DNA of 64,000 nucleotides from Escherichia coli (GCF_051903065.1 NZ_CP178438.1); one strand, 5' to 3'. Counted from the first letter of the stretch, positions 27,001 through 33,000 are shown. Program-made: the numbers.

Positions 27001-30000
27001 GACTTCACCGAAAAAATGACGCCCGCAGCGGTATTTTTCAGCAGACGTACTTCAGGTTTTCGAAAGGGAAAAAGCATGGCCACTCCTTAGCCGAATATTC
27101 AGAACCCTGAACTGTGCCAGAAAATTACGCTGGTGACTATTGCTCTGGAAATGGTAACGGTATCCTTACCCATTAATCCCCGTTTGCACCGAAAGAATAT
27201 GCTGCAAACTTTCTACCATAATGCGCCCCGACTGAAATAAGCCTTCCTGGATTTCGTTGTTAACATTCACAGCGTGAACCAGGGAGGCTAATAATACTAC
27301 TTGCAAGAAGGCAAAAATAAACGCACCGATAATCATAATATGCGTCAGGGGTATTTTCCTTTGCTCCTTCATTTTAAATAACCCACGAACTGGCCTTCTT
27401 TCATTAAGGCGACTTTTCCTGTGTGATGATAAACAATGACGTTATACAGACCTGACTGATAAACAGTGGCATCTTTATTGTCTTCATCAATTGCACATAA
27501 TGAATCATTGAGATAAGCAAAGTTTTTACTGCTCATTCTAAAGGTCATGCCAAATCCTTTATAAATGGCTTTCTTTGCCGCCTGGGCGTGTTGTGCGGCT
27601 TCTGCATTTTTAAATGCCTGCGCTTCGGAAGCACTTAAAATAGCCGTCTGGCGCTGCTGTTCTGCGAGATAACAGGTGTCATGGCTGACGCCCTGCGCCT
27701 GGCAATCTGCGATGCGGGAAGCGGGTGAGCTACAGCCAGCCAGTAATATAACCGCCAGCAGGGAAAACGATTTAATGGAGCTATTCATCATTGTTAACCT
27801 TAAATAATGTACAAATTAATGAAGAGGTGAACCCGGCAAGCTTCCTTGCTCTTATTTATATTGAGGATTGAAATATTAGAACGAATATCCCACGCCGACA
27901 CCCGCGCCGAAATCAGATTGTGTATCCGCAGAGACACCGGCTTTAATCACGGTATGCGTTCCGGCATTAAAAGATGTTCCTACAGACACCGCAGATTCAC
28001 CGTTGAAGGTTCCCGCTCCCGCTGACACCATCATCAAGTCACCGGTTTTCACCTGGGGTTGTGAGGCGATAGCGATGGCAGATGCAGTTCCCGCATTGGC
28101 TTCATTACGATTATCCTCAACTTCGTTTTTCAGCGAACTGAAATGGTTATTGAGCGTAGTAATCTGTTGGCTATTATCCGCTACTCGTTTTTGCGTGTTG
28201 CTTAACTGCTGATGCGTTTGGGTTACGTCTTGTGTCAGGCTGTCAATTTGTTCATGCGTTTGCGTTGAGTCTTGCGCCAGACGCTGAATTTGTTCCCCGT
28301 ACTGCACACTATCGATATGCTGTTGCGTTGCCTGGTTAGTCGCCAGAGTATCTATTTTTTGTTTTTGTTCTGCTGCAGTACGCGCATTCGCATCATTTTG
28401 TGCTCTCAGTCCGGCGTTAACCATCTCTTGATAATGTGCGTTGGTCTGGGCATCGCCAAGTGCGGAAACCGTTTTTTGCGTCGCGTCGATTTGTTTCTGC
28501 TGATCGTCCATTTGTTGCTGCTGGGTGTCCGCTTGTTCCTGTTGCGCATTGGCAGCGGCTGTCTGTCTGGCGTCAATCATGCTCTGATATCGGGCGGCAG
28601 TCTGCACATCCCCGGTGGCGGCAACGGTTTTCCGGGTTTCGTCGAGTTGTTGCTGTTGGTCAGCAATATCGCTGCGGTTCTGTTCGATATTATTTTTGTT
28701 TTCTGTCACAGCACCGGAAAGTTTGACGCCGTTAATCAGAGCGGTGTTGGCGTTAGCGTTAGCATGGTCAGCCGTTGACTGGGCATGTGTGACATCGCCT
28801 TTTATGTTGGTGACGTCTGACTGCACTGCGGAGACATCATTACGGGTGTCGGCGATGGCGGCTTTATTGGCATCAATATCCGTCTGCGCCACCGTGATGG
28901 CGTGCTGCGCGTCATCAGCTTTCAGTGAAGCCCAGTTGGCGGCATGTTGTGCGTCCTGAATGGCGGTGTCCTGCTCGTTGTCGCGGACGGTCTGTTTGTG
29001 CTCGTTTGATGCCAGCCGTTTCTGCTGGTCAGCAATATCGCTGCGGTTCTGTTCGATATTGTTTTTGTTTTCTGTCACAGCACCGGAAAGTTTGACGCCG
29101 TTCATCAGAGCGGTGTTGGCGTTAGCGTTGGCATGGTCAGCCGTTGACTGAGCATGTGCGACATCGGCTTTTATGTTGGTGACGTCTGACTGCACTGCGG
29201 AGACATCATTGCGGGTGTCGGTGATGGCGGCTTTATTGGCATCAATATCCGTCTGCGCCACCATAATGGCATGGTGCGCATCATCAGCTTTTTGCGACGC
29301 CCAGTTGGCGGCATGTTGCGCGTCCTGAATGGCGGTGTCCTGCCCGTTGTCGCGGACGGTCTGCGCTTGATTGGTTATCGGGTTCAGCGTACTGGCGGGC
29401 TGTACGGGAGAAGCAGTTGTATTTTCCTGAGGCGTCGTTGTCTGGTAATCATGCGCAATCAGATAATTTTGTGCGGCTGCGCTATTTCCTGTCCTTTCTA
29501 AAAATCGACCAATTTTCTGATCAATTTCCACTTGCGACATTCCTGGCTGGATTGCCGCTAATTCTGTCGCTGCCGCCTCAACAGTATCACCCGCAAACGC
29601 AGATGGACTTACTGCGGTAGCAACAACGACAGCCAGTAAAGACAACTTTACAGTATTCATGTATTTTTTCTCGTCCAAAGTAAGTCACATATTTGTTTCT
29701 ATAAGAAACATAAATCGTTGTTATAAGAATTAATCTGCGTTGCAATTTGATCGAAATCTACGCCGACATTTGTGTGATGTAAAGCGCATTTTTGTTTGAT
29801 GTAAGCGTAAACACCACCAATAAGAAACAAAAATTGTTTCTTTTATAAATAAAAAAGGAAATCATTTCGTGCTCTTTCAATGTAAAAAAGAGTAAAGACT
29901 TGTTTTGATAAGCGAAATAAATTCTGTTTCTGGACTAAACGTGAAGCGGTTCCTGATGTGTGCTAAAATGCGTTTCTTTGATAAATCTCAATTTTTAAGA

Positions 30001-33000
30001 GGTTTACGCCAGGCAGGAAAATTTAAATGAATGAATTTGAGAAGATTTTTAATGAAATGAATCTGGACCGGGCATTGCTACCGATCCTTTTTCGTTCGAA
30101 CCGGTCGACAGTATGGAAGTATTTAAGCGGCGATAGTACGGCTCCTGCCTCTGCCATGTCGCTGATTATGCTGTTGCAGTTGATCCAGAAACGAAACCCC
30201 GATCTGTTAGCCGAATGGTTAACGCTTTCTGATTTCACCATTCCGCCAGAAGTTTACCTGGACCAGCCTGATTACTGGAAAGGGTGGGTGTATACCCAAC
30301 ATAAGGTCAATAAAAACGTCCTGGAATATCTAAAAAAACACTATCCGGATGAAGACCAAAAAAGTATGGGTAAAGGCCGGGAAGAGTAATTTTGCCTCTA
30401 CTCGGCTATATGCCGGATGCGGCGCAAGCGCCTTATCTGGCCTACGATTTGGGCATATTTTGTAGGCATGATAAGACGCGTCAGCGTCGCATCAGGCGAT
30501 GACCGCACGGATGATCAGCGTTATCCCTTCTATCGCAATGACTTCAACATGCGTACCTGCGCCGAGATCCTCGCTGGCGCTGACAGGCCATGAACTGTCA
30601 CCGACGCGCATATGACCGCGCCCGTTGACCAGCGGAGATTCCAGCACAAAACGTCGGCCAATCAGCTGCTGCCCGCGCTGGTTTAAATGACTGTCGCTGT
30701 GCTTTTGTTCGCGCACCCGCCGCGACAACCATTTCCACCACAGCCAGGCGGCGAGCAGCGTCAGGACGGCAAACATCACCCCTTGCCACTCCCAACCCAG
30801 CGGCACCAGCCAGACCACCAGGCCGGTAATCACCGCTGCCACGCCACTCCACAACAAATAACCATTTCCGCCCAGCATCTCGGCTGCCAGCAGCAACCCG
30901 CCGAGACTGAGCCAGAAAATATGTGGATGAACGACCATTAACTCCATCATGGCTGAGTCCGTTTGTTGGCGCTGTCTTTCACCAGCTCGGCAATCCCGGC
31001 AATCGACCCCATCAGGCTGCTGGCCTCTAATGGCATCATCACCACTTTGCTGTTACTGGACGAACCGATCTGCTGTAACGCTTCGGTGTATTTCTGCGCT
31101 ACGAAGTAGTTCACCGCCTGAATATCACCGGAGGCGATGGCTTCAGACACCATTTTGGTGGCGCGGGCTTCTGCTTCAGCGGAACGTTCACGCGCTTCAG
31201 CCTGTAAAAACGCCGACTGACGTTCGCCTTCCGCTTTCAGGATTTGCGACTGTTTTTCACCTTCGGCTTTGAGGATTTCCGCCTGACGGATCCCTTCCGC
31301 TTCGAGGATGTAAGCGCGTTTGGTACGTTCCGCTTTCATCTGCGCGTTCATTGAAGAGATAAGCTCTGCCGGTGGGCGCACGTCGCGAATTTCAATACGG
31401 GTGACTTTAATCCCCCACGGGTTAGTGGCTTCATCGACAATACGCAGCAGGCGTGAGTTGATGCTGTCGCGCTGAGAGAGCATTTCGTCAAGTTCCATTG
31501 AACCCAGCACGGTACGGATGTTAGTCATGGTCAGGTTGATGATCGCCAGCTCCAGATTGCTGACTTCATAAGCCGCGCGCGGCGCATCAATCACCTGAAT
31601 AAAGCACACGGCGTCGATGGTAACGTTGGCGTTATCTTTCGAGATAACTTCCTGGGAAGGGATATCGAGCACTTGCTCCATCATATTGATCTTGCGACCA
31701 ATGCGATCCATAAACGGCACCACCAGACTGAGCCCCGGCTGTAACGTTTTGGTATAGCGACCAAAACGTTCTACCGTCCATTGATAGCCCTGCGGCACGA
31801 TTTTGACGCCCGCGCCGACAATGACCAGCGCGACAAAAATGAGAATCGGGATAAAGATAAGCATCGGAAAAACCTCCTGTTGTACCGTCCATAATCAGCA
31901 AAATTGCTGCTTGATTAAACAAATTATACCTGATTACTGAAAGAGAGTTCCCCCTTATTCCTGCGAAGGATAAACTGTTTTTAGTAAAAATCAGAAAAAG
32001 GGAACAGCGATGCAGGAAAATAGTCCTTTGCTTCAGCTACAAAACGTAGGATATCTGGCGGGTGATGCGAAGATTCTTAATAACATCAATTTTTCGCTGC
32101 GTGCTGGCGAATTTAAGTTAATTACCGGTCCTTCTGGTTGTGGCAAAAGTACGCTGCTAAAAATAGTTGCTTCATTGATCAGCCCAACCAGCGGAACGTT
32201 ACTGTTTGAAGGTGAGGATGTCAGCACACTAAAGCCAGAAATCTACCGCCAACAAGTCTCTTACTGCGCCCAGACACCGACGCTGTTTGGCGATACGGTA
32301 TACGATAATCTGATCTTTCCCTGGCAGATCCGTAACCGGCAGCCTGACCCGGCCATTTTTCTCGATTTTCTTGAACGCTTCGCCTTGCCGGACAGCATTT
32401 TGACGAAGAATATCGCCGAGCTATCTGGTGGTGAAAAACAACGCATCTCATTGATTCGTAACCTGCAATTTATGCCGAAGGTTTTATTGCTGGATGAAAT
32501 CACCAGTGCGCTGGATGAAAGTAATAAACATAACGTTAATGAGATGATCCATCGTTATGTGCGCGAGCAAAATATTGCCGTGCTGTGGGTGACACACGAT
32601 AAAGACGAAATTAATCATGCGGATAAAGTGATTACACTGCAACCGCATGCCGGAGAAATGCAGGAAGCACGCTATGAACTCGCATAATATTACTAACGAA
32701 TCATTAGCACTGGCATTAATGCTGGTGGTGGTGGCAATCTTAATTAGCCATAAAGAAAAACTGGCGCTGGAGAAAGATATTCTCTGGAGCGTTGGGCGCG
32801 CGATAATTCAGCTGATTATTGTCGGCTATGTGCTGAAGTATATTTTCAGCGTGGATGATGCCAGCCTGACATTATTGATGGTGTTATTTATCTGCTTTAA
32901 TGCGGCGTGGAACGCGCAAAAACGCAGTAAATATATTGCTAAAGCTTTTATCTCATCGTTTATTGCCATTACGGTCGGGGCGGGAATTACCCTGGCGGTG

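What the first reader, a model, noticed from the sequence alone, without database searches (positions are those of the whole stretch)
29680..30389. AT-rich divergent control region and an unassigned 120-aa ORF
The ~350-bp region between the autotransporter gene and ORF 30027..30389 is very AT-rich with A/T tracts and internal short repeats (tttgtgtgatgtaaagcg / tttgtttgatgtaagcg), the signature of curved, nucleoid-protein-bound promoters. The 120-aa product is unrecognised; it could be a local regulator of the autotransporter cluster.
Basis: inference. Interest (0 to 1): 0.3.

Follow-up and report, generated by a model that had tools for sequence, protein, structure and literature searches.

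The report
Small HTH regulator beside adhesin operon

Summary

The spacer holds conserved promoter blocks for both genes. It also holds 6 copies of GTTTCT/AGAAAC (about 0.3 expected), forming GTTTCT-N3-AGAAAC-like sites enriched in 7 lineages.

Best reading: a cassette-encoded local regulator and autoregulator, more likely a repressor or modulator than an obligatory activator. Binding is untested.

The parts
30027..30389 (+). [not shown]
29661..30026 (.). 366-bp AT-rich divergent control region shared by the adhesin operon and the ORF.
   Evidence: 31% GC against 55% for the window. Spacer length is 350-408 bp in the 8 closer loci and 267-308 bp in the three Hafnia-type loci. Conserved blocks stand out against saturated synonymous divergence.
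29755..29783 (-). Putative sigma-70 promoter of the adhesin operon: -35 TTTACA (29783..29778), 17-bp spacer, -10 TAGATT (29760..29755). The inferred TSS is near 29748, giving a leader of about 88 nt.
   Evidence: It is the only promoter-like hit in the scan. The blocks TGTGATGTAAAGC and TACGCC are invariant in 4 lineages and present in 6 lineages, 99-120 bp upstream of the adhesin ATG. The TSS is inferred, not measured.
29695..29709 (.). Candidate operator O1, the perfect palindrome GTTTCT-ATA-AGAAAC. It lies in the adhesin leader, 35 nt upstream of the adhesin ATG.
   Evidence: 0 mismatches. A GTTTCT at the equivalent position occurs in Pseudocitrobacter, Symbiopectobacterium, Kosakonia and Lelliottia.
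29814..29850 (.). Candidate operator pair O2, two back-to-back hexamers (AGAAAC at 29823-29828 and GTTTCT at 29836-29841), each with a degenerate partner.
   Evidence: 29836-29850, 2 mismatches.
29926..29940 (.). Candidate operator O3, GTTTCTGGACTAAAC, about 36-50 bp upstream of the ORF's inferred TSS.
   Evidence: GTTTCT is invariant in 4 lineages at about -101 from the ORF ATG. Two mismatches to the palindrome.
29961..29969 (+). Putative extended -10 promoter of the ORF (TGcTAAAAT). No conserved -35 is present.
   Evidence: TGnTAnnnT lies 47-69 nt upstream of the start codon in 9 of 11 family loci. The simple two-hexamer scan did not call it.
29972..29986 (.). Candidate operator O4, GTTTCTTTGATAAAT, at the ORF's inferred TSS. 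This is the putative autoregulation site.
   Evidence: GTTTCTTTGA is invariant in 4 lineages. A GTTTCT sits 2-3 nt after the -10 in 6 lineages.
29978..29991 (.). TTGATAAATCTCAA, a 9/10 match to TTGAT-N4-ATCAA (the FNR-box consensus, from my own knowledge). It overlaps O4.
   Evidence: Matches with <=1 mismatch lie just downstream of the -10 in 7 of 11 loci, perfect in L008 and L011. The window has 7 such matches against 1.39 expected, 2 of them in this spacer.
29747..29760 (.). Second TTGAT-N4-ATCAA-like site (TTGATCGAAATCTA), overlapping the adhesin promoter's -10.
   Evidence: It is not conserved in the other lineages.
27876..29660 (-). [not shown]
   Evidence: Pfam YadA_anchor E 8e-12. The O157 allele also matches YadA_anchor, and its translation starts MKTVNVALLALIISATSSPVVLA. 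gmrA primers map onto it. Tandem repeat at 28649-29363.
27369..27791 (-). [not shown]
   Evidence: RefSeq annotates it 'lipoprotein'. A gene of about 137-156 aa occupies the same position in most related loci.
27166..27372 (-). 68-aa gene for a predicted membrane protein, third gene of the operon. It overlaps the lipoprotein stop codon.
   Evidence: A gene of 64-70 aa follows in Pseudocitrobacter, Symbiopectobacterium, Lelliottia and L013.
30400..30491 (.). REP/BIME repeats between the ORF's stop codon and the convergent ybbJ gene.
   Evidence: This part of the query hits a median of 7 places per E. coli genome. Sub-threshold naRNA4 (REP-derived) matches.

Best explanation
The ORF encodes a small cytoplasmic DNA-binding protein. 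It has an N-terminal XRE/Cro-C1-type helix-turn-helix domain and a family-specific helical C-terminal domain that may mediate oligomerisation.

It is the dedicated regulator carried by a mobile four-gene cassette: regulator, then divergently a YadA-type trimeric autotransporter adhesin, a lipoprotein and a 68-aa membrane protein.

Proposed mechanism:
1. A dimer recognises imperfect 6-3-6 inverted repeats of the form GTTTCT-N3-AGAAAC, four to six of which lie in the 366-bp spacer.
2. One site sits at the ORF's own transcription start, just after an extended -10, and would give autoregulation.
3. One perfect palindrome sits in the adhesin leader between the conserved sigma-70 promoter and the ribosome-binding site. 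The other sites lie between the two promoters.
4. Occupancy would therefore set expression of both divergent units together.

The published genetics make a repressor or modulator more likely than an obligatory activator. Host factors (possibly FNR at the TTGAT-N4-ATCAA box, possibly H-NS on the AT-rich DNA) may act on the same region.

Shown: the gene is real, the fold, the synteny, and the motif enrichment and conservation. Inferred: DNA binding, operator identity, transcription start sites and the sign of regulation.
For: Gene reality:
- dN/dS is 0.064 within E. coli.
- dS is 0.2 with dN 0 within Pseudocitrobacter.
- Synonymous sites are saturated between genera while pN is 0.14-0.22.
- The gene is transcribed at 43.5 RPKM in DMEM and falls together with the adhesin genes on HeLa contact (PMC5826968 Table S3).

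Fold:
- AF2 pLDDT 89.4, pTM 0.78.
- Foldseek against PDB and BFVD agrees.
- Weak sequence hints point to MqsA, HigA2, Xre-like-HTH and HTH_3.
- A 33%-identical Hafnia relative is named an XRE-family regulator by JGI.
- R26 and T28 of the recognition helix are the only conserved polar residues in the N-terminal domain. That domain is basic, pI 8.2.

Synteny:
- The gene is divergent from a YadA_anchor gene in E. coli, Pseudocitrobacter, Kosakonia, Lelliottia, Hafnia alvei, Hafnia paralvei and the metagenomic locus L012.
- It is divergent from genes without a Pfam anchor hit in Symbiopectobacterium and L008.
- The flanking genes differ from case to case.

Cis elements:
- GTTTCT/AGAAAC occurs 6 times in 366 bp against 0.3 expected.
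- It is enriched in 8 spacers from 7 lineages, each P<=0.003, at 8-17 per kb against 0.2-0.75 per kb in the flanks.
- Positions relative to the ORF ATG are conserved at about -333, -192, -101 and -55.
- Aligning the 38 sites gives TnT-GTTTCT-N3-aGaAa.
- Four of the five window matches with <=2 mismatches to the palindrome lie in this spacer.
- Hafnia paralvei, whose recognition helix differs (PRNTIFNYL), carries TGTTCYT-N3-NGG four times instead (P 0.0007).

Sign of regulation:
- A clone with the spacer and the adhesin gene but no z0640 complemented the island deletion.
- Deleting z0640 did not copy the adhesin-gene phenotype (PMC5826968).
Against: - No binding or reporter data exist for this protein.
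- Sequence-profile matches to HTH families are all below curated thresholds (E 0.04-0.2).
- The GTTTCT sites could belong to a host factor shared by these enterobacteria.
- The block at the ORF's start site also matches the FNR consensus, which may explain its conservation better.
- One family member (L014) has no adhesin neighbour.
- Lineages are few and related, so the motif/recognition-helix covariation rests on about three independent clades. Hafnia alvei still has TTTCT-like cores.
- The z0640 deletion gave no motility phenotype, the only phenotype tested (PMC5826968).
- Some E. coli lineages carry frameshifted copies (P0016, P0018), so the gene is dispensable.
- Transcription start sites are inferred from consensus only.
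Confidence: 0.55

Rival explanations
1. The protein does bind DNA, but its main targets lie elsewhere in the genome. The adjacency to the adhesin operon then reflects co-transfer only, and host factors (FNR, H-NS or another) bind the spacer motifs.
For: The TTGAT-N4-ATCAA box after the -10 matches the FNR consensus. It stays conserved even where the HTH recognition helix has diverged (L011, L015), as expected for a host-factor site. The spacer is the most AT-rich DNA in the window. Regulators encoded on islands often act on core genes (reviewed in PMC10877973).
Against: The pairing with a YadA-anchor gene survives relocation to at least six different chromosomal sites and down to 33% protein identity. 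The hexamer changes in Hafnia paralvei along with the recognition helix. The fliA promoter, the only distal target proposed for this island, has no palindrome-like site.
Confidence: 0.2
2. The HTH-like fold serves protein-protein interaction rather than DNA binding. Examples would be an anti-regulator, or a cytoplasmic factor for adhesin biogenesis.
For: Only half of the protein is HTH. The C-terminal half has no structural match. The whole protein is mildly acidic, pI 5.7. No HTH profile passes its threshold.
Against: The canonical recognition-helix signature (N)RST..K..G is the most conserved polar feature of the family. The N-terminal domain is basic. A repeated palindromic motif sits exactly where an operator would be.
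Confidence: 0.1
3. It is an orphan antitoxin of the HigA2/MqsA type, or an Aca- or C-protein-like controller of a neighbouring toxin, anti-CRISPR or restriction gene.
For: The best sequence and fold matches are HigA2, MqsA, Aca2, Aca1 and C.Esp1396I.
Against: None of the 11 contexts has a toxin, restriction-modification or acr gene in the conserved neighbourhood. Downstream genes differ everywhere. The RES-Xre pair in Kosakonia is a separate, complete system 340 bp downstream. PADLOC gives no hit and PHROGs only two weak matches (E 0.03-0.05) to families of unknown function. There is no MqsA zinc domain.
Confidence: 0.04
4. The ORF is a chance open frame in AT-rich, horizontally acquired DNA.
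For: There is no database family, and the annotation is 'hypothetical' everywhere.
Against: Purifying selection is strong. Homologs occur in at least 8 genera with a conserved start codon and a conserved upstream region before the start; the AGGA Shine-Dalgarno was read in the window only. The fold prediction is confident. The gene is transcribed.
Confidence: 0.01

Closest known systems
[not shown]
   Same: It is the same gene. The published z0640 knockout primers flank exactly this ORF, and the O157-type allele differs by 1 of 120 residues.
   Different: The paper treats it as a hypothetical protein with no motility phenotype. It does not note the HTH fold or the cassette architecture. In this window the island is a longer variant, with an extra 409-aa ORF and an adhesin gene lengthened by duplication.
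XRE/Cro-C1 helix-turn-helix regulators with a small extra domain (HigA2 C-terminal domain, MqsA C-terminal domain, Aca2, R-M controller C proteins)
   Different: No profile match passes threshold. The C-terminal half is unmatched. The conserved partner is an adhesin operon, not a toxin, anti-CRISPR or restriction gene.
Local regulators of adhesin operons transcribed divergently across a long AT-rich spacer (papI-papB type fimbrial switches), and NadR, the repressor of the Neisseria trimeric autotransporter NadA. Both are cited from my own knowledge.
   Same: Functional analogy only: a small regulator dedicated to a surface adhesin, with multiple sites in a spacer of about 370-400 bp.
   Different: The protein folds differ (PapI/PapB and MarR-type NadR against XRE). 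There is no sign of Dam/Lrp phase variation here, as the spacer contains a single GATC. NadR is not encoded next to nadA.
[not shown]
   Same: It is encoded in the same island, directly across the spacer studied here.

Membership tests
XRE/Cro-C1 HTH superfamily (Pfam HTH_3 and relatives) | Five-helix bundle with helix 2, a turn, and recognition helix 3 | tested here: met
   [not shown]
XRE/Cro-C1 HTH superfamily (Pfam HTH_3 and relatives) | Sequence-profile match above the family's curated threshold | tested here: not met
   Best matches are MqsA_antitoxin E 0.08, Xre-like-HTH 0.04, HTH_19 0.17 and HTH_3 0.21, all below gathering scores. The PDB profile search gives HigA2 at E 0.24.
XRE/Cro-C1 HTH superfamily (Pfam HTH_3 and relatives) | Sequence-specific binding to (pseudo)palindromic DNA | not testable with these tools
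   Only candidate sites were found: GTTTCT-N3-AGAAAC-like sites enriched in the spacers.
Type II antitoxins of the HigA2/MqsA type | Adjacent, co-transcribed toxin gene | tested here: not met
   No conserved neighbour other than the adhesin operon in 11 contexts. No PADLOC hit.
Type II antitoxins of the HigA2/MqsA type | MqsA N-terminal zinc-binding domain | tested here: not met
   The HTH is at the N-terminus, the protein has no cysteine, and only positions 76-129 of the MqsA profile align.
Restriction-modification controller (C) proteins / Aca proteins | Encoded immediately upstream of the R-M or anti-CRISPR genes they control | tested here: not met
   No such genes appear in any locus. PHROGs gave no family of known function.
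Cis-encoded local regulators of adhesin operons (a functional class) | Conserved adjacency to the adhesin operon, retained across relocations | tested here: met
   10 of 11 contexts, at six or more different chromosomal sites, down to 33% protein identity.
Cis-encoded local regulators of adhesin operons (a functional class) | Adhesin expression changes when the regulator is removed or overproduced | not testable with these tools
   Only indirect evidence exists. The spacer plus the adhesin gene complement the island deletion without z0640, and the three genes co-vary in RNA-seq.
H-NS-silenced, horizontally acquired promoters | AT-rich DNA well below the genome average | tested here: met
   31% GC against 55% for the window, and the only stretch below 35% GC in 64 kb.
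H-NS-silenced, horizontally acquired promoters | H-NS occupancy, with derepression in an hns mutant | not testable with these tools
   Only two 8/10 matches to TCGATAAATT, a motif I recalled from memory. The A-tract count is not beyond composition.
FNR-controlled promoters | TTGAT-N4-ATCAA box placed at a promoter | tested here: met
   29978-29991 matches 9/10, just after the -10. The same placement occurs in 7 of 11 loci, two of them perfect. The consensus itself comes from my own knowledge.
FNR-controlled promoters | Oxygen- and fnr-dependent expression | not testable with these tools
   No data were found.

The most novel reading that the evidence does not exclude
Probability: 0.4. Interest if true: 0.55.

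Novelty: new member of a known kind. Interest (0 to 1): 0.35.

Why it matters
Expression control of trimeric autotransporter adhesins in E. coli is poorly understood beyond global silencing. A cassette-encoded regulator with defined candidate operators gives a directly testable handle on when this adhesin is made. The adhesin is present in about a quarter of complete E. coli genomes, including O157:H7, O55:H7, and neonatal-meningitis, avian-pathogenic and uropathogenic lineages.

The analysis also flags a likely mis-assignment that several reviews have repeated. The 'transcription factor GmrA' is, by sequence, a secreted outer-membrane adhesin, while the neighbouring gene that has never been studied carries the DNA-binding fold.

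Otherwise this is an ordinary small HTH regulator.

Tried and rejected
- The search for related loci with the wide alignment A3 failed because no stretch was conserved enough. With A1 it found only 4 of 100,044 species representatives. That shows rarity but added few loci.
- The afdb50 fold library was unavailable.
- Rfam found nothing in the spacer, only sub-threshold REP-derived naRNA4 matches downstream.
- PADLOC found nothing; PHROGs gave only weak hits (E 0.014-0.05), none relevant to function, the one named hit being a marginal Rz-like spanin match (E 0.033) over the lipoprotein's signal peptide.
- NCBIfam gave no family for the ORF. Its Rad50/SMC hits on the adhesin are coiled-coil noise far below the cut-offs.
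- The 41-aa upstream ORF at 29905-30030 was rejected as coding. Its apparent conservation, seen in the N-terminal extension of P0021, reflects conserved promoter DNA, and indels break the frame between lineages.
- A class II CRP site at TGTGATGTAAAGCGCA was considered. It would need a -10 at a non-conserved, non-consensus position, so it was rejected in favour of the TTTACA-N17-TAGATT promoter.
- From memory I compared GTTTCT with the OmpR, PhoP, RcsB, Cra/KdgR, CpxR and TyrR boxes. None fits in both orientation and spacing. These comparisons are leads only.
- I looked for the candidate operator in the fliA promoter of an O157 genome. There is a single AGAAAC and no palindrome-like site.
It is only modestly beyond chance, and its second copy is not conserved.
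Full report
**Where the window comes from.** The window is E. coli chromosome, in the region cueR - ybbJ - qmcA - fetAB - cnoX - ybbO - tesA. An island sits between cueR (25446-25853) and ybbJ (30492-30950). On the minus strand it carries:
- a 409-aa ORF (25854-27083);
- a 68-aa membrane-protein gene (27166-27372);
- a 140-aa lipoprotein gene (27369-27791);
- a YadA-anchor trimeric autotransporter adhesin gene (27876-29660; Pfam YadA_anchor E 8e-12).

A 366-bp spacer follows, then the 120-aa ORF on the plus strand (30027-30389), then REP elements. The spacer plus ORF is found at >=80% coverage in 1413 of 5426 complete E. coli genomes. RefSeq annotates the ORF as 'hypothetical protein'.

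**The observation.** It is confirmed.
- The spacer is 31.4% GC against 55.1% for the window, and is the only 300-bp stretch below 35% GC in 64 kb.
- A/T tracts are frequent (10 tracts; 27 per kb against 8 per kb). Composition-matched shuffles give 6.5 +/- 2.3, so the tracts largely follow from AT-richness.
- The quoted repeats exist (29769-29786 and 29791-29807; core 13/14 identical, 22 bp apart). A pair like this appears in 8.7% of Markov simulations.
GTTTCT/AGAAAC occurs six times against about 0.3 expected, in 0 of 5000 shuffles. The whole 64 kb contains 26 copies.

**The ORF is a real gene.**
- Against the O157-type allele, dS is 0.055 and dN 0.004 (ratio 0.064).
- Two Pseudocitrobacter alleles differ at dS 0.2 with identical proteins.
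- Between genera, synonymous sites are saturated (pS 0.75-0.9) while pN is only 0.14-0.22.
- Homologs at 27-85% identity occur in Escherichia, Pseudocitrobacter, Symbiopectobacterium, Kosakonia, Kluyvera, Leclercia, Lelliottia and Hafnia.
- The family is very small. There are 19 representatives at E<=1e-3 among 1.84 billion 50%-identity clusters, and 4 of 100,044 species-representative genomes carry it.
- No Pfam or NCBIfam family covers it.

**Identity in the literature.** The island is O island 29 (S-loop 43) of EHEC O157:H7, described by Yang et al. 2018 (PMC5826968) as containing z0638, z0639 ('gmrA') and z0640. I mapped their primers.
- The z0640 knockout arms flank exactly this ORF (window 29989-30026; L002 7759-7797).
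- The gmrA/z0639 arms, cloning primers and FLAG-tag primer flank and encode the 338-aa YadA-family adhesin. They begin at MKTVNVAL... and end at ...GVGYSF.

Their RNA-seq shows the gene is transcribed at 43.5 RPKM in DMEM. It falls to zero on HeLa-attached cells together with z0638 and z0639.

Their complementing 'gmrA' clone starts inside the ORF's -10 (primer at L002 7329-7348). It therefore carries the spacer and the adhesin gene but not z0640.

**Fold.** An AlphaFold2 model built on an 18-sequence family alignment is confident (pLDDT 89.4, pTM 0.78) and all-helical.
- Foldseek against PDB and BFVD agrees.
- Only the first 50-65 residues or so align. The C-terminal half has no convincing match.
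- At sequence level the hints are weak but point the same way: MqsA_antitoxin E 0.08, Xre-like-HTH 0.04, HTH_3 0.2 and HigA2 0.24.
- The recognition helix reads NRSTVWKYLSG. R26 and T28 are the conserved polar residues of the N-terminal domain, which is basic, pI 8.2.

**Context.** In every locus with enough flanking sequence except one, the gene is divergent from an adhesin operon across a spacer of 267-408 bp:

| Lineage | Position or neighbours |
|---|---|
| E. coli | cueR / ybbJ |
| Pseudocitrobacter | qmcA / fetA |
| L008 | qmcA / cnoX |
| Symbiopectobacterium | next to nrdAB |
| Kosakonia | next to a RES-Xre pair |
| Lelliottia | two YadA-anchor genes, near a recombinase |
| Hafnia alvei and H. 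paralvei | MatE / MFS |
| L012 | next to a sucrose regulon |

The exception is L014. A unit that keeps its internal arrangement while its flanks change is a cassette, and its small HTH gene is the obvious candidate for its regulator.

**The spacer.** Synonymous sites are saturated between these genera, so conserved non-coding blocks are informative.
1. On the minus strand, TTTACA-N17-TAGATT (29783..29755) is the only sigma-70-like hit in the scan. Its -35 block TGTGATGTAAAGC and the -10-proximal TACGCC occur in six lineages, 99-120 bp upstream of the adhesin ATG.
2. TGnTAAAAT (29961-29969), an extended -10, lies 47-69 nt upstream of the ORF start in 9 of 11 loci.
3. GTTTCT recurs at conserved distances from the ORF ATG, about -333, -192, -101 and -55. 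It is enriched in 8 spacers from 7 lineages (3-6 copies against 0.16-0.37 expected, each P<=0.003), at 8-17 per kb against 0.2-0.75 per kb in the flanks.

Aligning 38 sites shows a weaker partner, TnT-GTTTCT-N3-aGaAa. This is an imperfect 6-3-6 inverted repeat whose perfect form, GTTTCTATAAGAAAC, sits in the adhesin leader at 29695-29709. Of the five window matches to that palindrome with <=2 mismatches, four are in the spacer.

In Hafnia paralvei the recognition helix is PRNTIFNYL, and the spacer instead carries TGTTCYT-N3-NGG four times (P 0.0007). H. alvei has YTTTCTGC three times (read). A motif that shifts with the protein argues for cognate binding, but the number of independent clades is small.

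**A second conserved element.** TTGATAAATCTCAA (29978-29991) overlaps the site at the ORF's start. It matches TTGAT-N4-ATCAA at 9/10, and the same placement occurs in 7 of 11 loci, two of them perfect. From my own knowledge, this is the FNR consensus. It persists where the HTH recognition helix has diverged, so a host factor may explain it better than the cassette's own protein. A second such site (29747-29760) overlaps the adhesin -10 but is specific to E. coli.

**Mechanism proposed.** A dimer of the HTH protein binds the GTTTCT-N3-AGAAAC-like sites:
- at its own start site, giving autoregulation;
- in the adhesin leader;
- between the two promoters.

The two units would thereby be coupled, in agreement with their co-variation in RNA-seq.

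The spacer plus adhesin clone works without z0640, and the z0640 deletion does not copy the adhesin-gene phenotype. An obligatory activator is therefore unlikely, and a repressor or modulator is the better guess. All steps from 'binds' onward are inference.

**Rivals.**
- An orphan antitoxin, C-protein or Aca role is contradicted by context, with no PADLOC hit and no PHROGs hit of known function.
- A distal-target regulator, or a non-DNA-binding role, cannot be excluded.
- The fliA promoter, the only distal target proposed for this island, lacks the motif.
- A spurious ORF is excluded.

**Verdict.** The thing itself is an ordinary kind of object: a small XRE-type local regulator in an unclassified, narrowly distributed family. 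The most useful by-product is that the 'GmrA transcription factor' of the literature is, by sequence, the adhesin, while the neighbouring unstudied gene carries the DNA-binding fold.

Noticed in passing
[not shown]
   Followed up: yes
window 28649-29363: There is a 369-bp tandem duplication (1.9 copies, 93% identical) inside the adhesin stalk. It makes this allele 594 aa against 338 aa in O157-type strains. The stalk length of this adhesin is evidently variable between strains (338-615 aa across loci).
   Followed up: partly
window 25854-27083 (minus strand): A 409-aa ORF lies between cueR and the adhesin operon. It is present in this island variant and in strain 23CRST027 but absent from the O157-type island. 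It has no Pfam, NCBIfam, PADLOC or PHROGs match and is annotated as hypothetical (WP_000898667).
   Followed up: partly
window 1335-25449: A giant 6925-aa ORF (RefSeq calls the ortholog 'BapA-related adhesin SiiEA') is followed by a type I secretion ABC gene. That gene appears split by a frameshift (22116-23873 and 23519-24277) and is annotated 'frameshifted' in the identical strain. A HlyD adaptor gene follows (24274-25449).
   Followed up: partly
window 30400-30491: Two or three REP elements (a BIME-like cluster) lie between the ORF's stop codon and the convergent ybbJ gene. This segment alone matches a median of 7 places per E. coli genome and gives sub-threshold hits to the REP-derived naRNA4 family.
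   Followed up: partly
L001 3704-5192 (strain 23CRST027, spacer 100% identical to the window): In the closest complete genome, an IS903B copy interrupts the lipoprotein gene of the adhesin operon. The adhesin CDS there is annotated in truncated form. The window itself has the lipoprotein gene intact.
   Followed up: no
proteins P0016, P0018, P0006 (E. coli alleles of the ORF): Some E. coli lineages carry frameshifted versions of the ORF that keep the HTH half but scramble the C-terminal half from about residue 77. This suggests the gene decays in part of the population.
   Followed up: no
L023/L024 6675-7585 (Kosakonia cowanii): A complete Xre-like-HTH/RES toxin-antitoxin pair lies about 340 bp downstream of the Kosakonia ortholog. 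It is a separate system and is not conserved in the other loci.
   Followed up: no
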